From assembly GCA_043822385.1 (NCBI GenBank), contig JBDRBT010000014.1:164-64163 (forward strand): DNA of 64,000 nucleotides, given 5' to 3'. How positions within the stretch are numbered: the first letter of the stretch is position 1; every line of letters begins with the position of its first letter. The position numbers and the translations under genes are program-made. The notes under the pieces were generated by a model, which did no database searches, was not told the DNA's origin, and saw only the letters and a list, made by a program, of their open reading frames with translations. This stretch comes from Candidatus Micrarchaeota archaeon. GTDB lineage: Archaea; Micrarchaeota; Micrarchaeia; Norongarragalinales; Norongarragalinaceae. Below are positions 6,417 to 19,850 of this stretch, one piece after another.

Positions 6417-7112
6417 TTAGAAGAGTTTTTCCAAGTCTTTTTCTTTCTTTCTAGCTACTCTAGCTACTGAGTCCTTCAAGCCCAAGCCAATTGCTATTGC
6501 TAAACCCAAGCCAATAGCCAAGCCTAAAGCGCCTAACAGTATAGCGAAAGAATTCTCAAGAATCGACACGTTTGCTTTAGGAATCAATAAAGGTAGTGCA
6601 ATAACTATTCCAGAGTAAGCAATGAAGACTTCAATAACCCAACCAACTAGCTTGGCGAAAGGAATCTTTGACATTTTAATGTGGTCAGTAATATAGTCTC
6701 CAGCTACTAAAGCAAGCACGAGTATAGCTAATCCTTGCAGCAAGTTGCTGAACGTGTAAGCAAACAACCAACTAATCAAGGGATACAAAAAGAATTCAGG
6801 TCCAGCTAAGCGCATTGCGGCACTGCCACCAATGTGCAAGAAAATTATTAGTGTAGACCACTTCAAGAGTTTAGTAAAGAAGTCAGTGAAAGTAAAACCA
6901 AGTAAAGCATCATGAATATGCCTCTTGCGCAAGCCTTCCTCAAACTTTACGTGTTGGAAAAAGTGTTTTAGGATATCTACAAGCCAGTTAGCAACAATCC
7001 AGCCAATGCCAAAGGCAATTAACACCATCAGCAAGCCGCCTAAATCAAATAAAAAGTTTTTCGATGCAACTCCAAGCTGCAGCATTACTTCATTGTATAT
7101 AGATTCCAACAT
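6417..7112 (-). CDS. integral membrane protein (conserved-TM-helix / mechanosensitive-channel-like)
   Basis: 231 aa with about 5-6 hydrophobic helices, a Gly/Ala/Ile-rich C-terminal helix (GLAIGLGLAIAIGLGLKD) and a charged tail. Confidence 0.55.
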   Translation of the reverse strand: MLESIYNEVMLQLGVASKNFLFDLGGLLMVLIAFGIGWIVANWLVDILKHFFQHVKFEEGLRKRHIHDALLGFTFTDFFTKLLKWSTLIIFLHIGGSAAMRLAGPEFFLYPLISWLFAYTFSNLLQGLAILVLALVAGDYITDHIKMSKIPFAKLVGWVIEVFIAYSGIVIALPLLIPKANVSILENSFAILLGALGLAIGLGLAIAIGLGLKDSVARVARKKEKDLEKLF

Positions 7113-7212
7113 TATCCAATCACTCCTCTAAACTTAATCGAAGGTTTAAAAACATTACCCTTGAATCCTTTTTAAAACTACCCTTCACTATAGAGGAAAA
7201 ACAATCTTCCAC

Positions 7213-7533
7213 CTATACCTTTGTGTTTTCGTTCTTGCGGATAGTGTTTTGCAACAGGAAGCAAGAGTAATTAATCAAGTCAATCAACGCGTCAACGCGA
7301 TTTTCGTAGAGTTCTTCATTCCGATTGTGAATAATGAAGTACTCCATTCGGTTTAACTTGAGTTTCATAAACGCTAGCAACTCCCAGTCTTCCTGGTCCA
7401 TCCAGTTGTTGTCGTAAATCTTTTTCCTCTGCGCTCTAACGTCTAATACTCTCTGCAGAACATCTTGAGTTTCAGTGAAATTAATTAACTCCATTATTTT
7501 TTCAGTTTGTACTTGTTTTTCCACGCAAACCAC
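7213..7533 (-). CDS. hypothetical helical protein (possibly DUF1599-like)
   Basis: 106-aa ORF. The pattern KKIYDNNW...KLKLNRMEYF...DALIDLINYSCFLL is reminiscent of DUF1599. The assignment is tentative. Confidence 0.4.
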   Translation of the reverse strand: MVCVEKQVQTEKIMELINFTETQDVLQRVLDVRAQRKKIYDNNWMDQEDWELLAFMKLKLNRMEYFIIHNRNEELYENRVDALIDLINYSCFLLQNTIRKNENTKV

Positions 7534-7622
7534 CTTAAATAATTAAGCGAAAAAGCTTTTAAATTCAATAACACAAGTTTGTAATACTGTTTTTTAAAGT
7601 TTAATTTAGAGGTTTAGTTTAA

Positions 7623-8015
7623 ATGGTTCAATATCACAAGACAACTAAAAGCAAGCAATCTGGTTCGGGCGGAAAGAAAAGAAAAACTCGAAACAAAGTG
7701 TTAATTCACTATGGTGGCTTCTTTTCCAAGTCAAGAGTAGCTAAAGAAGGACAAAAACAAGAATTAACTTCCTTTAGAGTACTCGGCGGAAACAAGAAGA
7801 CTGCAGCTAAAACAATCACGTTCGCCAACATTTCAGACGGCAAAACAGTCAAAAAAGTAAAAGTATTAAACGTGGTTGAAAGCCCTGACAACAGGCATTA
7901 CGCTAGAGAAAAAGTGGTTACTAAAGGCTGTTTAATTGAAACAGAAGCTGGAAAAGCCCGAGTAACCTCAAGGCCAGGGCAACATGGCGTAGTAAACGCT
8001 ACACTCGTAAAGTAA
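7623..8015 (+). CDS. rps8e: 30S ribosomal protein S8e
   Basis: 130 aa. Basic N-terminus with KSKQSGSGGKKRKTRNK, and a C-terminal ARVTSRPGQHGVVNATLV typical of eS8. Confidence 0.85.
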   Translation: MVQYHKTTKSKQSGSGGKKRKTRNKVLIHYGGFFSKSRVAKEGQKQELTSFRVLGGNKKTAAKTITFANISDGKTVKKVKVLNVVESPDNRHYAREKVVTKGCLIETEAGKARVTSRPGQHGVVNATLVK

Positions 8016-8074
8016 CCAAAAGGCTTATAAAGCTAATCGTGTCCTTATAGTATTCCCCTAATGGTTTTTACGAA

Positions 8075-8293
8075 ATGGATTTTAAGGTGTTATTCAAGAC
8101 TAGAAAAGGAAATGTAGTTCTCGAATCCAGTGAAAAACAAGGAATCGAGAAGAAATTATTGAACCAAGCAAACCAAAAGAAAGCAATGATTTTCGATACA
8201 ATCGGGTCAATAAAAAAGCCATTTTACTTAGCTAAACCCTTAGATGAAAACGTCGCGGGAGTATTAACGAGTTTGAAGGTTGATAATAAATGA
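8075..8293 (+). CDS. H/ACA RNP component Gar1-like protein
   Basis: 72 aa. The core AMIFDTIGSIKKPFYLAKP matches the Gar1 pattern (v.dvFGPv..PY..vKP). ATGA overlap with the tfb start. Confidence 0.5.
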   Translation: MDFKVLFKTRKGNVVLESSEKQGIEKKLLNQANQKKAMIFDTIGSIKKPFYLAKPLDENVAGVLTSLKVDNK

Positions 8294-9189
8294 AGTGTTC
8301 TGAATGCGGTAGCAATAAAGTAAAGCGAGACTCAGAAAGAGGAGAAGTAGTTTGCAGTGATTGCGGACTAGTTCTTGAAGAAAATGTAGTCCAAGAAGGA
8401 CCTGAATGGAGGGCTTTCGACGCTGAACAAAGAGCTACTCGCGCTAGAACAGGCGCTCCATTAAAATACATGTCTCCAAACAAGGGCTTAGTAACTGAAA
8501 TCGACCAGTACAACAGGGATGTCCGCGGCGGGAAAATAGCTCCAAGCCAGCAAGCACAATTATACAGAATGCGAAAGTGGCACAAGCGCGCTTCAATTTC
8601 AAACAGCATTGAAAGAAACCTAGCTATTGCCTTAACTGAATTAAACCGAGTAGCTTCACACTTGGGTTTGCAGGAAGTTATTCGCGAGAGCTCTGCATTG
8701 CTTTACAGAAAGTGCGTTGAAAAAGGATTAATTCGCGGAAGACAAATCGAGTCAGTAGTAAGCGCAGTTATTTACGCGGTATGCAGGCAATACGGAGTGC
8801 CTCGCACTCTAGATGAAATTTCTGCAATAGCTGAAATACCAAAAAAAGAAATTGGTAGAACCTTCCGTTTAATAACCCAGGAATTACACTTAAAGATTCC
8901 TTTAACCAACCCTCAATTCTACATTACTCGCTTCGTTACTTCACTGAAACTAAGCGGTGAAACACAAAAGAAAGCACAAGAAATACTAAACCAAGCTTTA
9001 GACAAAGGCCTAGTTTCAGGTCGTGGCCCAATGGGTGTTGCTGCAGCCGCAGTATACATTGCTTCAGTTCTTGTTGGTGAGAGACGCACGCAAAAAGAAG
9101 TAGCAGACGTAGCAGGAGTAACAGAAGTAACAATTCGAAACCGCTACCGCGAACTAAAGAAGGCTTTAGCGCTGAAAGTAAGCATTTAA
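8290..9189 (+). CDS. tfb: transcription initiation factor TFB (TFIIB)
   Basis: N-terminal Zn ribbon CSECGSNKV...VCSDCGLVLEE, a B-finger/linker, and two cyclin-fold repeats ending in the HTH segment QKEVADVAGVTEVTIRNRYREL. Confidence 0.95.
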   Translation: MKCSECGSNKVKRDSERGEVVCSDCGLVLEENVVQEGPEWRAFDAEQRATRARTGAPLKYMSPNKGLVTEIDQYNRDVRGGKIAPSQQAQLYRMRKWHKRASISNSIERNLAIALTELNRVASHLGLQEVIRESSALLYRKCVEKGLIRGRQIESVVSAVIYAVCRQYGVPRTLDEISAIAEIPKKEIGRTFRLITQELHLKIPLTNPQFYITRFVTSLKLSGETQKKAQEILNQALDKGLVSGRGPMGVAAAAVYIASVLVGERRTQKEVADVAGVTEVTIRNRYRELKKALALKVSI

Positions 9190-9212
9190 TTTTTCTTCCT
9201 TCTTATTTTATT

Positions 9213-10430
9213 GTGGTAAAAATCAACGCGAAAAAAGCACTCTTGACGCTAGCGTTATTAAATGCATTAGCAATAACAGGGGTAATAGCTAACAAGCCAA
9301 CTGCATCAGTAAACAATCCTCTTTACAAGCCACCTGAAAAAATAGAGAAAACAATATACGCCTACCCGTTTCACGAAGAAATAAGTAAAAATCTAGCTGA
9401 AGCCAAGAAAAAATACAAAAACGTCAAAAATATTGATTTAGTTGATCCTTTCTTTATGCAAGCGCTAGCAGTAAAAGAAAGCGGGCAATTCCCTTGGGTA
9501 GTAAACCGGCCGAGTAAAAACGAAACTGATGTTGGCTTGTTTCAAATAACTCCACTAGCTTTAGAAGAAGCTAAACGCATAGGCGCAGTGCACAAAAACA
9601 CTACACTCAAAGACTTGTTTTACTACCATCCTGACGCGGGAAAACTAAAAGAGTTAGCTTCATGGCACAGGCAGTACGTTACGGATGAAGAGGGAGTGAA
9701 AAGAACTTTTCACGACTGGCTTAAAAACGAAGTAGAAAAAAACATTAAAGAACGCAAACAATTGACTAGAGACCCCACTCCTCAAGAAATACAAGAACAC
9801 AATAAACAAGCCCTAGAAAAAAACATTACGATCGCAGCGAATATAGTTTTAGAACACTTGAAACAACTTGAAAAATCCGGCACATACAAAGGAAACGAAT
9901 CGTTAACTGGTTGGGGCGCAAAATACTTCAACCAACTCGATGAAAAAACCAAACGAGAAATTCTTGCAATGAGTTACTTGACTGGCGTAAACCAAGCTAA
10001 AAACAAAACTAAACTAGCACAATCAAAAGAAAAAGTCGACCCCCTGAAAATACAGTACGGTAAAGACCATCACTATGTTTGGAACAAATTAAAAAACGGC
10101 GGAACTAAAGAAATATCGTTCAAAGACTACCCCCCAAGAAACAAAACGGAAGAAATAATACTCAATACGCTTGGAGAAGCTCGTTTCAAAAAACTCCGGA
10201 AAACCAAGGGAACAGAAATACCTTGGGGGCGGATAGCTGGCGCAACTCTTTTAGTAACGCAATTCTTGTTGCTTGAAAGAAAACGCAAGAAAATACTAAA
10301 AACAAGAAAAGAACAAGAATCATGGAAGGGCCCTATTAAAAAAACAATTGAGCCAGAAAGGGGAGAACGAAAGCCATTGTGGGACGGAAAAATCAAGCCA
10401 AGAGAAGGACCGTCTAGAACAAAGAAATAA
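9213..10430 (+). CDS. membrane-anchored lytic-transglycosylase (SLT/GH23)-like protein
   Basis: GTG start. N-terminal hydrophobic signal/anchor LLTLALLNALAITGVIA. SLT-like motif ALAVKESGQF...DVGLFQITPLALEEAKRIG. C-terminal TM segment (IAGATLLVTQFLLL) followed by a basic tail. Confidence 0.55.
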   Translation: MVKINAKKALLTLALLNALAITGVIANKPTASVNNPLYKPPEKIEKTIYAYPFHEEISKNLAEAKKKYKNVKNIDLVDPFFMQALAVKESGQFPWVVNRPSKNETDVGLFQITPLALEEAKRIGAVHKNTTLKDLFYYHPDAGKLKELASWHRQYVTDEEGVKRTFHDWLKNEVEKNIKERKQLTRDPTPQEIQEHNKQALEKNITIAANIVLEHLKQLEKSGTYKGNESLTGWGAKYFNQLDEKTKREILAMSYLTGVNQAKNKTKLAQSKEKVDPLKIQYGKDHHYVWNKLKNGGTKEISFKDYPPRNKTEEIILNTLGEARFKKLRKTKGTEIPWGRIAGATLLVTQFLLLERKRKKILKTRKEQESWKGPIKKTIEPERGERKPLWDGKIKPREGPSRTKK

Positions 10431-11460
10431 TTTTTTTAACCGAGTAATTAGTTTTCACTCCCATCGGCGAGTAATGCACCCTAATTCCCTTCACGCGTTG
10501 AACGAAATCAATAATCTTAAAGTTAACTGGCTTGTTGTAATGATCAGCTAACACTGAAACATCAAAAAAAGGCTTCTTGAATTCATCTTCAACTAAAAGC
10601 GACTCAAACAAAACACTAATTTTTTCTTTATCCGCATAAGTTCTTTCTTCATTCAATGAAATCATTTTTTTAACGAACTTTTCATCCTGCAAACCTCCAA
10701 CCCACAAAGGACCCGCAAACGTTTTCCCCTTTTTCTTCGAGAAAGAACGCTCTAACGTTTTTGGATTAAAATTAAGAAAACCAATATCCCTGTTTTTCTT
10801 CTTACTCTTTTTACACAAACAAATCGTTTTAACGTAATGATTCCGGTAAAACGAAAACAAAGGCTTGCACGAAAAACCTTTTTTTTCAGCTTCCAAAACA
10901 ACTTTCTTCACTAGAATGCGTAAAGCAATCTCGTGACAACAATCAATGCGAAGCGTCTTGCTCCCATAATACTTCAAAGTAGGTGCATTCTTAGCACACA
11001 AATTAGCCAAGTCAGTAGCAGTAACAGAAAAGAAAAAAGAATTCCCAACACAAGAAAAAACACTCTCTAAGAAAGGAGCAGGAGTACCAAAAGGATCCAA
11101 CTCAACAAAATCAAATCTCTCTTCACTATCAAAACAAAAACGATTAAAATCTTCCTCCAAAACACTGCCTTTTACTTTATTCGCTTTAACATTCTTACGA
11201 CAATACGCTAAAGCATCAGGATTAGCATCCACGAAAACAACCTTCTTTGTTTTATTTTCTAAAGAATAACGAATTCCCCGCGCTCCAGAAGCACACAAAC
11301 CATCCAACACGCTCTTGCTTTCGGAAGCGCCTAAAGCTAGTGAAGAAACACTCCGGCAAAAACGCATTACTGGATTAAAAAAAACGCAAGCGTGATGCGG
11401 ATCCTTTAAAGTTTCACCCGGCAAATACAGTTTCGCGTTTTCTTCCTTGATTAAAGGCAT
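10414..11460 (-). CDS. trm1: tRNA (guanine26-N2)-dimethyltransferase Trm1
   Basis: Motifs VLDGLCASGARGIRYSLE, VDANPDA, FDFVELDPFGTPAPFLES. The start is placed at the internal ATG 11460 (MPLIKEENAKLYLPGE). The 24 upstream codons in the track ORF look spurious. Confidence 0.85.
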   Translation of the reverse strand: MPLIKEENAKLYLPGETLKDPHHACVFFNPVMRFCRSVSSLALGASESKSVLDGLCASGARGIRYSLENKTKKVVFVDANPDALAYCRKNVKANKVKGSVLEEDFNRFCFDSEERFDFVELDPFGTPAPFLESVFSCVGNSFFFSVTATDLANLCAKNAPTLKYYGSKTLRIDCCHEIALRILVKKVVLEAEKKGFSCKPLFSFYRNHYVKTICLCKKSKKKNRDIGFLNFNPKTLERSFSKKKGKTFAGPLWVGGLQDEKFVKKMISLNEERTYADKEKISVLFESLLVEDEFKKPFFDVSVLADHYNKPVNFKIIDFVQRVKGIRVHYSPMGVKTNYSVKKIISLF

Positions 11461-11495
11461 TGAATTAATTAAATGAAAACAAGAATATAGTAGTA

Positions 11496-12824
11496 ATGAA
11501 GTGCTTAATTTTACGCAAAACGCTCTCAACAAACCCGGATTACTATTGCTATTGTGAAGACGACTTCGTTAAAGTAATTCAAGACTCTACGCAAAGCGAT
11601 TTCAATGAACTAGAAACAATCGAAGTTGAAGGAAGAAAAAAAGAAGGCTTGATTCTAGCTGAACAAATAAGCGTTTCAAAAGACGCTTCATTGAAAAAAA
11701 AGTTATTGAAAAAAGCTCAAGCACACGATTACGAGTTGTTGTTTGACGATGAGTGCAGTGAATTAATGAAGCACAAAACTAAAGCAACAGCGAAAATAAT
11801 CGCTGAAAAAGTATTGTTCTTAAAACCCGTCTTAATTCGATTTAATGACGATTGCGACGGGGTTTCTTCAGGGTTACTAGTAAAAAAAGCACTTCAAGAA
11901 TACTGCTTGAAACACAACATTCCGCTAGAACTACGAGAACAACAATTAAACTCCGCTATTTACTCTGTAAACGATTACTTGTGGGATTCAGACCGGCTTG
12001 AAGAAGAAGGAGTGTTGTTCTTGCTTGACTTAGGCGCTAATCACCAAAGCCAGCAAGCGATTCAAGAAGCAACGAAACACTACACGGTAGTAATCCTAGA
12101 CCACCACCCATTTAATGAAGAAACAGTAAAAAACACGGTTTTTTTGAGTCCAATGAATTCTGAAGGAACGTCATCACACACTACGGGACTACTTTCTTAC
12201 TACTTAGCAATGGCGCTCAATGGCAAAGCAAATGAAAAACTAGCTTGGTTTTCAATGCAGAGCGATAAAAGCATTTACAGAAAAAAAACGGATTACTTGG
12301 AACCAGTAGTAATAGATTACTTGACTCGTGACTACTCGAGTTTAAAAGAATACGAAAAAGTATTAGAGTCACAAGAAAAAATAAAGAGTCTTCACGACAA
12401 TGCCTTGCTTAAAATGAGGACTACGCTGGAAAAAACAGAACAAAAAATAAAAGAAGAAAAAATTAACAACGCTTTGCTGGTTACAGTTAACTTAAACGCG
12501 GTAAAGAAAAAAAGTTACCCCCCAAAAAGCCTTGTAATAAACAATATTCACAACAAACGCGAAGAAAAAGAAGAATTAGTAGCAACAGTCGGCCACTCGG
12601 ATGACGCTATTCAATTCAGGGTTTCTCAAGCATTATGGAAAAAAGGATTCAAGGCAACAGACATAATCAAAAAAATAGTTAAGGAATTCGAGGGAGTAAG
12701 CGGCGGCGGACACGAGCAAGCCGCTGCAATGCGTTATCCGCTTGAACTCAAAAACCTAGTTTTAGAAAAAACCCTTGAGGAAACAAGGAAAGTAATAAAA
12801 GAAACCACCGGAAAACACGCCTAG
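11496..12824 (+). CDS. DHH/DHHA1 phosphoesterase, RecJ/GAN-like
   Basis: DHH motifs RFNDDCDGVSSG, LLDLG, VVILDHHPF, and the DHHA1 motif GGGHEQAAAM. Length 442 aa is similar to archaeal RecJ/Cdc45-like nucleases. Confidence 0.75.
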   Translation: MKCLILRKTLSTNPDYYCYCEDDFVKVIQDSTQSDFNELETIEVEGRKKEGLILAEQISVSKDASLKKKLLKKAQAHDYELLFDDECSELMKHKTKATAKIIAEKVLFLKPVLIRFNDDCDGVSSGLLVKKALQEYCLKHNIPLELREQQLNSAIYSVNDYLWDSDRLEEEGVLFLLDLGANHQSQQAIQEATKHYTVVILDHHPFNEETVKNTVFLSPMNSEGTSSHTTGLLSYYLAMALNGKANEKLAWFSMQSDKSIYRKKTDYLEPVVIDYLTRDYSSLKEYEKVLESQEKIKSLHDNALLKMRTTLEKTEQKIKEEKINNALLVTVNLNAVKKKSYPPKSLVINNIHNKREEKEELVATVGHSDDAIQFRVSQALWKKGFKATDIIKKIVKEFEGVSGGGHEQAAAMRYPLELKNLVLEKTLEETRKVIKETTGKHA

Positions 12825-12861
12825 AAATCTTTTTTTAAACCAAAAAACTAAGGAGAGTATT

Positions 12862-13299
12862 ATGACTGAAAAATTTAATGTGTATAAACCAAGGAAAACC
12901 GGTAACGGCGCTGCAGTTCAATTTGATTTCAATGAAAGCGTTAAAGCAGTATTCGTTGAAACAACAATGCAGTCTGGAGAACAACAATTCGACTGGCAAA
13001 ACAAGATAGTATTCAAGCTCGCTTCCATGGACTCCGCTAAAATAATTACGGTTTTGGAAGGTAAGAGTAAGGGAATAGACTTGTTTCACGACATGAGTAA
13101 AAGCAAGTTTTCAAGCGATTCAAGCACTAAAAACACTACTTTAACGCTAAGCAAAGGGGATTACGGTTTCTTCTTTAAGTTAAGCAAGCAAAAAACAGAC
13201 GGCTCAGTGCAAACAGTTAATTGCTCGTTAAGCGAGGAGGAAGGAGTAATACTCCGCATTCTTCTTAGTAAAGCAATAGAAAAATCCTTCGGCTGGTAA
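12862..13299 (+). CDS. Whirly-like single-stranded nucleic-acid-binding protein (tentative)
   Basis: 145 aa. Block-wise resemblance to plant Whirly proteins: YKPRKTGNGAAVQF (cf. KGKAAL), FDWQNKIVFKLASMD (cf. YDWxxKQxFxLS), DLFHDMS (cf. EFFHDP), GDYGFFFKLS (cf. DGSGxFxxLSV), and a C-terminal ...AIEKSFGW (cf. ...LPxxxGW). Confidence 0.5.
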   Translation: MTEKFNVYKPRKTGNGAAVQFDFNESVKAVFVETTMQSGEQQFDWQNKIVFKLASMDSAKIITVLEGKSKGIDLFHDMSKSKFSSDSSTKNTTLTLSKGDYGFFFKLSKQKTDGSVQTVNCSLSEEEGVILRILLSKAIEKSFGW

Positions 13300-17637: not shown

Positions 17638-19164
17638 GTGCTTGACTTAACTTTACTCAAGAGAGAAAAGGCGGAATTAAGAGATTACCAGTTAATAACT
17701 GCAGAAAACTGCTTGAAACACAAAGCTTGCTTGGTAGTAATGCCCACTGCTTTCGGCAAGACGTTCGTTGCAATACTAGCAATAGCTCACTTATTGAAAG
17801 AAAAAAAGAAAGTCTTGTTTCTAGCTCCAACAAAACCCTTAGCAATACAGCAAGCCAACCGAATAATCGACTCGCTAGACATTAATCCCGAAACAGTACT
17901 GGTAGTTACTGGAGAAACGCCGCCCGAAGAAAGAACAAAACAATACGCTGGTGCGTTCGTTGTTGTAGGCACTCCGCAAACAATTGAACACGACGTGTTA
18001 AGCAGCCGCATTATGCTGAAAGAATACAATTTGATTGTTTTCGATGAAGCGCACAGAGCAATAGGGGATTACGCTTACGTTTTCCTTGGGGAACAAGCGC
18101 AAAAACATAAGTTAATGGTTTTAGGCTTGACTGCGTCTCCTTCTTCAGACCCAGCTAAAATACTGCAAGTATGCAACAATCTAGGCGTGAAACACGTTGA
18201 AGTCAAGACAGAAAAAGACGACGACGCCAAACAATACGCTAACAAAGTAGACTTAGACTGGGAGTATATTGACTTGCCTCCCGAATTCAAGCAAGTCCGG
18301 GATGCGTTAGAAGAATTATTGAAAGAACCGTTAGGAATGCTTAAAGACAACGGCTTCCTGCAGACCTCTGCAATCACTACAAACAAGCGGCAATTACTTG
18401 AATTAAGAGGAAAAATAATGCAAGCAACGCGCACAGACCCGCGCGCTTACCAGTGCTTGAGTGCGTTAGCTAAAGCAATGAATTTAGTGCAAGCAATAGA
18501 CTTGCTTGAAAGTCAAGGCCTCCGGTCGTTAAGTGAATTCTTGAACGGGTTAAGCGAGAGGAAAACTAAAACCAAGGCAGTAACTCAATTACTAACTGAT
18601 TTCAGAGTCAAAAAAATCCAGACTGGAATTAACACTTTGTTGGAAAACGAAATAGAACACCCTAAAATGCAGCGGTTAAAAGACATAATTATTAATTCAG
18701 TAAGCAAGGGAGAAAGCGCGATTGTTTTCGCTCACTACCGTAATAGTGTTGACGCAATTTCAAGCGAGTTAAACAAAATACCTAAAGTAGACGCGCGAAT
18801 AATGGTTGGCCGCAGTAATGAGGGAATGACTCAAAAAAAACAAAAAGAACGCTTGGATGAATTCCGAAACAAGGAATTCAACGTGCTTGTATCAACGAGC
18901 ATCGGCGAGGAAGGAATAGACGTGCCAGCCGTGGATTTAGTTGTTTTTTATGAAGCAGTTCCGTCAGAAATTCGCTTGATTCAACGCAGGGGGAGAGCGG
19001 GGAGAACTAGGGTTGGCCGCGCAATTATTCTAGTTACTAAAGGAACTAAAGACGAAGCATTCTTGTGGATTTCACGCCGCAAGGAAGCTAAAATGCACGA
19101 GTCACTAAAAACAGTTAATGCTTTACTGAAAGAACCACCGCAACAAAAACTACTTGATTTTTAA
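17638..19164 (+). CDS. Hef-type (FANCM/ERCC4-related) SF2 helicase, helicase part only
   Basis: LRDYQL, walker A PTAFGKTF, FDEAHRA (DEAH), LGLTASP, and the C-terminal helicase motif QRRGRAGR. 508 aa with a GTG start. Confidence 0.85.
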   Translation: MLDLTLLKREKAELRDYQLITAENCLKHKACLVVMPTAFGKTFVAILAIAHLLKEKKKVLFLAPTKPLAIQQANRIIDSLDINPETVLVVTGETPPEERTKQYAGAFVVVGTPQTIEHDVLSSRIMLKEYNLIVFDEAHRAIGDYAYVFLGEQAQKHKLMVLGLTASPSSDPAKILQVCNNLGVKHVEVKTEKDDDAKQYANKVDLDWEYIDLPPEFKQVRDALEELLKEPLGMLKDNGFLQTSAITTNKRQLLELRGKIMQATRTDPRAYQCLSALAKAMNLVQAIDLLESQGLRSLSEFLNGLSERKTKTKAVTQLLTDFRVKKIQTGINTLLENEIEHPKMQRLKDIIINSVSKGESAIVFAHYRNSVDAISSELNKIPKVDARIMVGRSNEGMTQKKQKERLDEFRNKEFNVLVSTSIGEEGIDVPAVDLVVFYEAVPSEIRLIQRRGRAGRTRVGRAIILVTKGTKDEAFLWISRRKEAKMHESLKTVNALLKEPPQQKLLDF

Positions 19165-19205
19165 TCAAGCAAAAACGGAAAAACCAGTTGCTCCTAATAA
19201 GTAAA

Positions 19206-19850
19206 ATGGAAGAAAGAGTACAGGTTATTCTAGACGACCGCGAATTAAAGAGCGGTTGCGCTAAAGCACTTTACTCAATGGACGCCTTGCTTACTCCAAA
19301 ACGATTGGATGTAGGCGATTACGTGTTGAGTGACAGGGCTTGCGTTGAAAGAAAAAGCGCTGACGACTTCGAAGCCTCAATAATTGACGGCAGGTTGTTT
19401 GAGCAAGCAAAACAACTCAAAGCAACGTACGCTTCCCCAATAATAATTATAGTCGGAAAAGAATTCTATAGAGTTAATGAGAAAGCAAGGCGCGGCGCCT
19501 TTCTCTCGTTGATGATTGACTACCAAATTCCGTTGTTTTTTGTTGAAACAGAGAAAGAACTAGCTGAATTAATTCACGCTATAGCAGTGAAAGAACAACT
19601 GCAAGAAAAAAGAGAGTTAAAGCTACAGTACGGAAAGAAAAACACGTCCTTATCAGAACAACAACAATTAATCGTTGAGTCAATTCCGTTGATAGGGCCT
19701 AAGAACGCGAAAATGTTGTTGAAGCACTTTGGTTCTGTAGAGAAAGTGTATGAAGCAGACACTGAGGCGCTGCAGGAATGCGAGGGAATCGGCCCTACGC
19801 GAGCCAAGGAAATCAGGCGCATTATAACCAGCCAATACGAAACTCAATAA
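19206..19850 (+). CDS. ERCC4/XPF-type nuclease with (HhH)2 domain (Hef nuclease part)
   Basis: ILDDRELKSG..., LDVGDYVLSDRACVERKSADDFEASIIDGRLFEQ (the ERCC4 GDxnERKxxxD signature), then IPLIGPKNAKMLLKHFGS...GIGPTRAKEI (HhH2). ATG 19206 is preferred over TTG 19188. Confidence 0.85.
   Translation: MEERVQVILDDRELKSGCAKALYSMDALLTPKRLDVGDYVLSDRACVERKSADDFEASIIDGRLFEQAKQLKATYASPIIIIVGKEFYRVNEKARRGAFLSLMIDYQIPLFFVETEKELAELIHAIAVKEQLQEKRELKLQYGKKNTSLSEQQQLIVESIPLIGPKNAKMLLKHFGSVEKVYEADTEALQECEGIGPTRAKEIRRIITSQYETQ

What the first reader, a model, noticed from the sequence alone, without database searches (positions are those of the whole stretch)
11496..13299. Whirly-like ssDNA-binding protein encoded next to a RecJ/GAN-like DHH nuclease
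The 145-aa ORF (12862-13299) shows block-by-block resemblance to the plant Whirly family. The blocks are a KGKAAL-like strand, FDWxxKxxFxLS, FHD, a GxxGFFxxLS block and a C-terminal ...FGW. Whirly proteins are best known from plant organelles and form tetrameric ssDNA binders. The related PUR and DUF3276 folds occur in bacteria. I am not aware of characterised archaeal members. Here the gene lies 37 bp downstream of, and on the same strand as, a DHH/DHHA1 RecJ/Cdc45-like nuclease. That suggests a functional ssDNA-binding plus exonuclease pair in replication or repair, possibly replacing or supplementing RPA/SSB in a reduced genome.
Basis: partly seen in the sequence, partly recalled or inferred. 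Interest (0 to 1): 0.6.

Follow-up and report, generated by a model that had tools for sequence, protein, structure and literature searches.

The report
Archaeal Whirly protein beside HAN-like nuclease

Summary
ORF 12862-13299 (145 aa) passes Pfam's Whirly threshold (44.5 bits against a cut-off of 23). Its AlphaFold model (pLDDT 92.7) matches plant WHY1/2/3, PBF-2 p24 and trypanosome MRP1/2 (TM 0.7-0.79).

The upstream ORF 11496-12824 is a catalytically intact DHH/DHHA1 enzyme, but it is not the GAN/Cdc45-type RecJ. That orthologue lies on another contig. The neighbour's model matches the nuclease domain of the Hef-associated nuclease HAN (5yh1, E 2.8e-23, TM 0.74), so I call it a "mini-HAN".

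Within this order, 40 of 68 genomes carry Whirly. A DHH gene lies just upstream on the same strand in 19 of them: the mini-HAN clade in 15 and a different, NrnA-like clade in 4. In that second group the neighbourhood also holds an HhH-GPD glycosylase, RadA and an AlkD-like gene.

Presence of Whirly and mini-HAN across genomes is not correlated (p = 0.23). The genome also has a canonical SSB and an RPA-like protein, so Whirly supplements them and does not replace them.

Relatives occur in uncultivated phages and in protists (Thecamonas, Arcella, Amoeba). I found no paper on archaeal Whirlies.

Verdict: a new member of a known family, of moderate interest. The functional pairing is plausible but unproven.

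The parts
12862..13299 (+). Compact Whirly-family protein (145 aa; beta4-alpha-beta4-alpha), a predicted single-stranded nucleic-acid binder
   Evidence: Pfam PF08536, 44.5 bits against a cut-off of 23. AF2 pLDDT 92.7. Foldseek PDB top hits are MRP1/2, AtWHY1, StWhy2 and PBF-2, E about 3e-9, TM 0.7-0.79. It is conserved in 40 of 68 genomes of the order.
11496..12824 (+). 'Mini-HAN': a DHH/DHHA1 phosphoesterase with a small N-terminal beta-barrel (residues 1-60), a helical linker and an intact catalytic core (D119, D121, D178, D202-H203-H204, D257, GGGH 403-406)
   Evidence: Pfam DHH plus DHHA1. The best NCBIfam hit is HAN_nuclease, 66.8 bits, far below its cut-off of 840. AF2 pLDDT 93.9. Foldseek gives 5yh1 (PfuHAN nuclease domain) at E 2.8e-23, TM 0.74, against GAN/RecJ at E about 1e-13. 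Invariant catalytic residues are seen in alignment A4. In the tree it sits in clade C, distinct from the archaeal RecJ and NrnA-like clades.
12825..12861 (+). 37-bp spacer: a T-run with a TTTAAA element, followed by a GGAG ribosome-binding site 6 nt before the Whirly ATG
   Evidence: Read directly from the sequence. In other genera the spacer between the two genes ranges from -32 to +38 bp, which fits co-transcription.
17638..19850 (+). Context only: a split Hef, made of an SF2 helicase (17638-19164) and an ERCC4-(HhH)2 nuclease (19188-19850), 4.3 kb downstream
   Evidence: Pfam DEAD, Helicase_C and helical bundle for the first; ERCC4 and HHH for the second. This proximity is seen only in the same genus (L039), so it may be coincidental.
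10414..11532 (-). Context only: the tRNA methyltransferase Trm1, a divergent neighbour. It belongs to a conserved block RNase HII - S8e - TFB - Trm1 - (DHH) - Whirly
   Evidence: Pfam TRM, 222 bits. Synteny is seen in 12-14 of 20 enlarged loci.

Best explanation
ORF 12862-13299 encodes a genuine, minimal Whirly-family protein. It is most likely a homo-oligomeric, sequence-unspecific binder of single-stranded DNA, and possibly RNA. It has been inherited vertically within one order of Micrarchaeota.

In this genome it is probably co-transcribed with a 'mini-HAN'. This is a DHH/DHHA1 enzyme whose core resembles the 3'-to-5' ssDNA/ssRNA exonuclease domain of the euryarchaeal Hef-associated nuclease, but which lacks HAN's Zn-finger and S1 domains.

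Proposed working model: at stalled forks, breaks or excision gaps, Whirly coats and protects exposed ssDNA, or presents it to the nuclease, while the DHH enzyme trims the 3' tail. The pair would act as an accessory genome-maintenance module alongside the canonical SSB and RPA, not in their place.

Shown: family and fold membership, intact catalytic residues, tight same-strand spacing, recurrence of the pairing, and DNA-repair neighbours in two independent contexts.

Inferred: nucleic-acid binding, oligomeric state, exonuclease polarity, any physical or functional interaction, and the pathway.
For: - Whirly identity.
- HAN-like identity of the neighbour. Catalytic residues are invariant.
- Tight coupling: spacers of -32 to +38 bp in at least 9 loci from several genera.
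- Linkage: a DHH-domain gene lies upstream on the same strand, with under 2 kb between the Pfam domain hits, in 18 of 40 Whirly genomes. With the clade-C protein search this becomes 15 clade-C plus 4 clade-A, or 19 of 40. Several unlinked cases sit at contig ends and cannot be judged.
- Independent re-association: in family f2 Whirly has left the TFB-Trm1 block and sits behind a different DHH paralogue (clade A). There the local context is AlkD-like gene, DHH, HhH-GPD glycosylase, Whirly, RadA.
- In this genus a split Hef lies 4.3 kb away. HAN is a Hef partner in Thermococcales and its loss sensitises Haloferax to MMS (PMC6158738).
- Plant Whirlies bind ssDNA as tetramers and act in organelle double-strand-break repair (PMC3245945, PMC7549692).
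Against: - There is no phyletic dependence. Counts are Whirly+/mini-HAN+ 34, +/- 6, -/+ 20, -/- 8; Fisher p = 0.23. A whole sister genus (g3) keeps mini-HAN without Whirly.
- In about half of the Whirly genomes no DHH gene is adjacent. TFB or genes without Pfam matches (one with only weak, sub-threshold P-loop hits) sit upstream instead.
- In other orders of the class the neighbours are unrelated: a histidine phosphatase, a GTPase, PAC2.
- Much of the linkage within f1, f3, f4 and f8 could be inherited synteny of the TFB-Trm1-DHH-Whirly block.
- The hallmark KGKAAL motif, and the lysine needed for 24-mer assembly, are not literally present.
- The oligomeric state could not be modelled.
- The top structural hits include the RNA binders MRP1/2, so RNA remains a possible ligand.
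Confidence: 0.55

Rival explanations
1. Whirly is a general nucleoid-associated or ssDNA-binding housekeeping protein with no specific partnership with the DHH enzyme. The adjacency is inherited gene order in a slowly rearranging core block (RNase HII - S8e - TFB - Trm1 - DHH - Whirly).
For: The whole block, not only the pair, is conserved across families. In genus g8 TFB is the direct upstream neighbour. There is no phyletic correlation. Plant WHIRLY1 is described as an architectural nucleoid protein (PMC9070903).
Against: In family f2 Whirly lies away from the TFB block, yet again directly behind a DHH/DHHA1 gene of another clade and among repair genes. With 2-3 DHH genes per roughly 1 Mb, my rough estimate is under 1% for such a placement arising by chance. 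Spacers are operon-like.
Confidence: 0.27
2. The pair works on RNA. Whirly acts as an RNA chaperone or binder, as MRP1/2 and the phage protein ChmC do, and the DHH enzyme degrades short RNA (nanoRNase or 3' RNA exonuclease). The pair would serve RNA turnover or tRNA metabolism.
For: MRP1/2 are among the best structural matches. The Whirly-fold phage protein ChmC prefers RNA (10.1101/2023.09.22.559000). PfuHAN also digests ssRNA (PMC6158738). The f2 partner is NrnA-like. Trm1 is a neighbour.
Against: Sequence-level membership is with the DNA-binding plant Whirly family, whereas the Pfam MRP model scores only 15 bits, below its cut-off. The f2 neighbourhood is DNA repair: HhH-GPD, RadA, AlkD-like. 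Hef is nearby.
Confidence: 0.13
3. The gene is a recently acquired viral or mobile-element gene, or part of a defence system, and not a cellular core function.
For: More distant small Whirly homologues sit on phage-like contigs and in BFVD. sPC4/Whirly-fold domains serve as sensors in Shedu (10.1101/2023.08.10.552793).
Against: The gene lies in a conserved chromosomal core block. Its divergence follows taxonomy: 66% identity within the genus, 45-54% within the family and order, about 40% within the class. It is single-copy. There are no PADLOC or PHROG hits, no matches in cultured phages and no compositional anomaly.
Confidence: 0.03

Closest known systems
Plant Whirly proteins (StWHY1/PBF-2 p24 1L3A; StWHY2 3N1H; AtWHY1/2/3 4KOO/4KOP/4KOQ; Pfam PF08536)
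   Same: Same Pfam family, above threshold. Same beta4-alpha-beta4-alpha fold (TM 0.73-0.79). Shared FDW/YDW, FHD and G-FF-LS blocks and a C-terminal GW.
   Different: Only about 145 aa with no transit peptide. About 20% identity. The KGKAAL hairpin is replaced by a longer YKPxKxGxGxA loop, and the 24-mer lysine is not evident. The protein ends at the GW, where plant proteins continue. It is encoded in an archaeal operon-like pair. Tetramer formation and ssDNA binding are untested.
Hef-associated nuclease HAN (P. furiosus PF0399, 5YH1; T. kodakarensis TK0155)
   Same: The upstream gene's model superposes on the HAN DHH-DHHA1 nuclease domain (E 2.8e-23, TM 0.74, rmsd 3.4 A). All metal-binding motifs and GGGH are present. 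A Hef homologue is encoded 4.3 kb away.
   Different: It lacks the DnaJ-type Zn-finger and S1-like domains and has only a small N-terminal beta-barrel. It scores 66.8 bits against the 840-bit cut-off of the NCBIfam HAN equivalog. HAN was reported as confined to Euryarchaeota (PMC6158738). The trimer and the Hef interaction are untested.
Bacterial RecJ-SSB partnership (e.g. D. radiodurans RecJ with SSB C-terminus, 5F56)
   Same: The same logic: a DHH-family ssDNA exonuclease working with a separate ssDNA-binding protein.
   Different: The binder here has a Whirly fold, not an OB fold. The nuclease probably has the opposite polarity (HAN is 3'-to-5'). No interaction has been shown.
Trypanosome MRP1/MRP2 and jumbo-phage ChmC (Whirly-fold RNA binders)
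   Same: Same fold (TM 0.70-0.75). Small proteins that form tetramers.
   Different: No significant sequence similarity at family level (Pfam MRP scores 15 bits against a cut-off of 25.3). Those proteins bind RNA in editing or mRNA handling.
Tetrahymena TIF1 and uncharacterised protist homologues (Thecamonas trahens XP_013753633, Arcella, Amoeba proteus)
   Same: Non-plant Whirly relatives. The protist proteins match the archaeal protein at E about 1e-7 to 1e-10, with 30-33% identity. They share the archaeal-type N-terminal YK/YR-P...G-A-QF pattern and not KGKAAL.
   Different: Eukaryotic, with N-terminal presequences or low-complexity extensions and an internal insertion. TIF1 itself was not compared here; it is known to me only from the literature (PMC2377264).

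Membership tests
Whirly (Pfam PF08536) | Score above Pfam's gathering threshold | tested here: met
   44.5 bits against 23, E 1.8e-11. The same result comes from the six-frame genome search.
Whirly (Pfam PF08536) | Whirly fold: two beta-beta-beta-beta-alpha repeats | tested here: met
   The AF2 model (pLDDT 92.7) has E4-9, E17-24, E29-38, E49-53, H55-65, E71-77, E89-98, E102-111, E116-124, H125-142. Foldseek TM is 0.7-0.79 to 1l3a, 4koo, 4koq and 2gia.
Whirly (Pfam PF08536) | KGKAAL hallmark motif, including the second lysine needed for 24-mer assembly (PMC3245945) | tested here: not met
   The sequence reads YKPRKTGNGAAVQF and the family consensus is YKPxKxGxGxAxQF. The Pfam and PDB alignments start after this region. 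Only the GAA(V/L) part resembles the motif.
Whirly (Pfam PF08536) | Homotetramer ('whirligig') | not testable with these tools
Whirly (Pfam PF08536) | Sequence-unspecific ssDNA binding | not testable with these tools
   This needs EMSA or fluorescence polarisation with purified protein.
HAN (Hef-associated nuclease, NCBIfam NF053577) | Equivalog score cut-off | tested here: not met
   66.8 bits against 840.
HAN (Hef-associated nuclease, NCBIfam NF053577) | DHH-DHHA1 nuclease domain of HAN type, with motifs I-VII | tested here: met
   5yh1 is the best PDB hit by sequence (E 1.1e-7) and by structure (E 2.8e-23, TM 0.74). D119, D121, D178, DHH 202-204, D257 and GGGH 403-406 are invariant.
HAN (Hef-associated nuclease, NCBIfam NF053577) | N-terminal DnaJ Zn-finger, S1-like and OB domains (PMC6158738) | tested here: not met
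   The protein is 442 aa. Only a roughly 60-residue beta-barrel precedes the linker helix. Pfam finds no Zn-finger or S1 domain.
HAN (Hef-associated nuclease, NCBIfam NF053577) | Interaction with Hef; trimer | not testable with these tools
   There is only genomic proximity to a split Hef, in this genus alone.
GAN / archaeal RecJ / Cdc45-like (NF053575, NF053576) | Equivalog score, and being the genome's RecJ orthologue | tested here: not met
   The window protein scores 35.5 bits (GAN cut-off 850) and 61.3 bits (RecJ_archaeal cut-off 360). A different gene, G000:C8:17875-19350, scores 392.6 against 360. The two fall in separate, well-supported clades.
OB-fold SSB/RPA (as a replacement target) | Absence of canonical SSB/RPA from the genome | tested here: not met
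   A 94-aa SSB (PF21473; 1o7i, E 2.9e-9) and a 372-aa three-OB RPA-like protein (8aaj, E 1.7e-5) are present.

The most novel reading that the evidence does not exclude
Whirly is not a plant invention. It is an ancient ssDNA-binding module of archaea and of viruses. In Micrarchaeota it forms, with DHH-family exonucleases (mini-HAN or an NrnA-like enzyme), a dedicated ssDNA end-processing and protection module. That would be a non-OB counterpart of the bacterial SSB-RecJ pair. The eukaryotic Whirlies (plant organellar, ciliate, amoebozoan, apusomonad) would then descend from such a prokaryotic or viral ancestor.
Probability: 0.25. Interest if true: 0.72.

Novelty: new member of a known kind. 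Interest (0 to 1): 0.5.

Why it matters
Reviews call Whirly proteins plant-specific (PMC9070903, PMC11359715). Here a compact version is a conserved chromosomal gene in a DPANN order, with further relatives in uncultivated phages and in non-plant protists. This reopens the question of where the family came from.

It also offers a minimal 145-aa Whirly as a model for biochemistry.

The neighbour extends HAN-type nucleases beyond Euryarchaeota, where they were thought to be confined (PMC6158738).

If the pairing is functional, it would show how a reduced archaeal genome combines a non-OB ssDNA binder with a domain-stripped exonuclease for fork or break repair.

Tried and rejected
- The search for related loci with alignments A1 and A2 failed because no stretch was conserved enough. 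The single-protein scan returned only one locus, Ca. Micrarchaeota CG1_02_51_15.
- tblastn against cultured phages gave no match for the window protein or for P0098.
- PADLOC and PHROGs gave nothing for Whirly, so I rejected the defence and prophage readings.
- Cluster look-ups gave few names.
- The 150-representative tree is poorly resolved, so I make no claim about rooting or the direction of transfer.
- The phyletic co-occurrence test was not significant, so I rejected the idea that the two are obligate partners.
- 'GAN/Cdc45-like' was rejected after I found the true RecJ on C8 and built the three-clade tree.
- 'Replaces SSB/RPA' was rejected.
- The proximity of Hef is genus-specific, so I do not use it as strong evidence.
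- The paper with the Whirly-DNA crystal structures (PMC2910959) is not held, so DNA-contact residues could not be mapped.
- A tetramer prediction is not possible with the monomer-only tool.
Full report
**What is there**

The window is archaeal. It encodes TFB, ribosomal protein S8e, Trm1, a histone and Hef. Its closest relatives are named Candidatus Micrarchaeota. The assembly is 765 kb in 26 contigs and 82% complete.

The two ORFs of the finding lie exactly where stated, 37 bp apart on the + strand.

The spacer holds a T-run with a TTTAAA element and a GGAG ribosome-binding site 6 nt before the ATG. It could therefore carry read-through translation, a small internal promoter, or both.

**The Whirly protein**

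Pfam's Whirly model matches residues 30-132 at 44.5 bits, about twice the gathering score. The only significant PDB sequence matches are plant WHY1, p24, WHY2 and WHY3. Their alignments run through the FDW, FHD, G-FF-LS and terminal GW blocks.

I built an AlphaFold2 model on 15 homologues. It is confident (pLDDT 92.7, pTM 0.86) and has the beta4-alpha-beta4-alpha topology.

Foldseek places it with trypanosome MRP1/2, AtWHY1/2/3, StWhy2 and PBF-2 p24 (E 3e-9 to 1e-6, TM 0.68-0.79). PUR-alpha lies far behind at TM about 0.4. Family and fold membership are therefore established.

The plant hallmark KGKAAL is not there. The equivalent hairpin reads YKPRKTGNGAAV, with family consensus YKPxKxGxGxAxQF, and it lies outside the profile-aligned region. 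[quoted passage not shown] Higher-order assembly of that kind cannot be assumed here.

Oligomeric state and ligand could not be tested.

**The neighbour is a HAN-like nuclease, not GAN/Cdc45**

The 442-aa protein has DHH and DHHA1 domains and all catalytic residues: D119, D121, D178, D202-H203-H204, D257 and GGGH 403-406. These are invariant across 19 homologues.

The genome has a second DHH gene on contig C8. That gene passes NCBI's archaeal RecJ equivalog (392.6 bits against a cut-off of 360).

A maximum-likelihood tree of 49 DHH proteins from the order resolves three well-supported clades:
- Clade A: NrnA-like, 309-365 aa.
- Clade B: archaeal RecJ/GAN. It is never next to Whirly.
- Clade C: the window protein's clade.

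The window protein's best PDB match by sequence is 5yh1, the nuclease domain of P. furiosus HAN. Its AF2 model (pLDDT 93.9) superposes on 5yh1 at E 2.8e-23, TM 0.74, rmsd 3.4 A. That is nine orders of magnitude better than any GAN, RecJ or NrnA structure.

It lacks HAN's Zn-finger and S1 domains. It falls far below the HAN equivalog cut-off (66.8 bits against 840). I therefore call it HAN-like, or 'mini-HAN', and not HAN.

HAN is a Mn2+-dependent 3'-to-5' ssDNA/ssRNA exonuclease that binds Hef. Its loss sensitises Haloferax to MMS. It was reported only from Euryarchaeota (PMC6158738).

**Is the pairing conserved?**

- Whirly occurs in 39 of 401 sampled genomes of the phylum, all within the window's own class.
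- It occurs in 40 of 68 genomes of its order.
- A clade-C gene lies directly upstream, on the same strand, in 15 genomes from four families: f1, f3, f4 and f8.
- At nine loci with a directly adjacent DHH gene (eight clade C, one clade A) the spacers range from -32 to +38 bp.
- The pair sits at the end of a conserved block, RNase HII - S8e - TFB - Trm1 - (DHH) - Whirly. Part of the conservation is therefore plain synteny.
- In some genera Trm1 or TFB abuts Whirly and the DHH gene is elsewhere.

Family f2 is the more telling case. There Whirly is no longer near TFB. It lies directly behind a clade-A (NrnA-like) DHH/DHHA1 gene. In some genomes an HhH-GPD DNA glycosylase sits in between, overlapping the DHH stop codon. 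RadA lies about 0.9 kb downstream in one genome, and an AlkD-like alkylation-repair gene about 1.2 kb upstream in another. These genomes keep their clade-C gene at another site.

So Whirly has ended up behind a DHH-family phosphoesterase in two different ways. In both settings DNA-repair genes are nearby. In the window's own genus a split Hef lies 4.3 kb away.

Against an obligate partnership:
- Presence and absence are uncorrelated. The counts are 34, 6, 20 and 8; Fisher p = 0.23.
- Genus g3 keeps mini-HAN without Whirly.
- In other orders of the class the neighbours are unrelated.

**SSB and RPA**

The genome encodes a 94-aa OB-fold SSB (PF21473; Sulfolobus SSB 1o7i, E 2.9e-9). It also encodes a 372-aa protein with three OB folds that matches archaeal RPA (8aaj, E 1.7e-5). 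Whirly therefore supplements the canonical ssDNA binders and does not replace them.

**Wider family**

An exhaustive phmmer search found 305 cluster representatives, clustered at 50% identity, with E below 1e-3. Most are 140-175 aa.

- One supported clade of about 20 representatives holds the Micrarchaeota proteins.
- Three more distant members lie on phage-like contigs with many orphan ORFs, Mom, an intein, or a sigma-70-like factor. Two of these have an HD-domain gene next to the Whirly gene.
- BFVD holds a 141-aa 'Whirly transcription factor' from an uncultured caudovirus.
- Others are eukaryotic: Thecamonas trahens, Arcella intermedia and Amoeba proteus, all with N-terminal extensions.
- By this measure the protist proteins are closer to the archaeal protein than plant Whirlies are. 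The protist matches fall between about E 1e-10 and 1e-7 in a library of 1.8 billion sequences. The plant PDB chains reach only E about 2e-3 in a library of 177,635 sequences.

The tree is too poorly resolved to root.

**Literature**

Searches combining Whirly with archaea, DPANN or Micrarchaeota found no paper on archaeal Whirlies.
- Plant reviews call the family plant-specific (PMC9070903).
- Tetrahymena TIF1 is cited as a distant homologue (PMC2377264).
- Whirly-fold domains are described in the jumbo-phage protein ChmC and in Shedu sensors (10.1101/2023.09.22.559000; 10.1101/2023.08.10.552793).
- Databases already tag these archaeal proteins with PF08536 automatically.

Earlier notes of this scan reached the same reading on other genomes. 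I treat them as leads, not as independent evidence.

**Verdict**

It is wrong about GAN/Cdc45 and about replacing SSB/RPA.

My estimates:
- About 0.55: a compact Whirly ssDNA binder acting as an accessory genome-maintenance factor, probably co-transcribed with and assisting a HAN-like 3' exonuclease.
- About 0.27: inherited synteny without a specific partnership.
- About 0.13: an RNA-directed role.

This is a new member of a known family in an unexpected lineage, with an untested but suggestive gene pairing.

Noticed in passing
L053 (G132:C6) 7729-11957; L045 (G018:C58) 6931-10297: In family f2 the Whirly gene sits in a DNA-repair cluster: an AlkD-like DNA_alkylation repair gene, an NrnA-like DHH/DHHA1 gene, an HhH-GPD glycosylase whose start overlaps the DHH stop, Whirly, and a convergent RadA.
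   Followed up: partly
window 17638-19850: Hef is split into a separate SF2 helicase gene (508 aa) and an ERCC4-(HhH)2 nuclease gene (220 aa), 23 nt apart in different frames.
   Followed up: partly
G000:C13 (94-aa ORF, minus strand, about 25.6-25.9 kb) and G000:C15:4505-5629: The genome holds a crenarchaeal-type single-OB SSB and a three-OB RPA-like protein side by side. Counting Whirly, this roughly 0.8-Mb genome has three kinds of ssDNA binder.
   Followed up: partly
L101 7001-8370; L102 1310-2877: On two phage-like contigs a small Whirly homologue is followed, directly or after one small ORF, by an HD-domain phosphohydrolase gene. This is another Whirly-plus-phosphoesterase adjacency.
   Followed up: no
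P0070, P0089, P0113 (not in the window): Uncharacterised proteins of Thecamonas trahens, Arcella intermedia and Amoeba proteus are Whirly homologues with N-terminal presequence-like extensions. By E-value they are closer to the archaeal type than plant Whirlies are.
   Followed up: partly
P0013; L004 1462-2511; L043 9346-10161: Some Micrarchaeota Whirly ORFs carry 100-200-residue N-terminal extensions, rich in P, Q and S in P0013. These resemble a disordered region fused to the Whirly domain, unless the starts are miscalled.
   Followed up: no
window 11460-11532: The listed TTG start of Trm1 (11532) overlaps the DHH start by 37 bp. The ATG at 11460 (MPLIKEEN...) is the more likely start, which leaves a 35-bp divergent spacer.
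   Followed up: no
window 9213-10430: A membrane-anchored SLT/lytic-transglycosylase-like protein in an archaeon (Pfam SLT, 25 bits).
   Followed up: no
L005 2076-2993; L019 365-1306: In genus g8, TFB is the gene directly upstream of Whirly, with a spacer of -4 to 38 bp. So the TFB-Whirly association survives the loss of Trm1 and DHH from the block.
   Followed up: no
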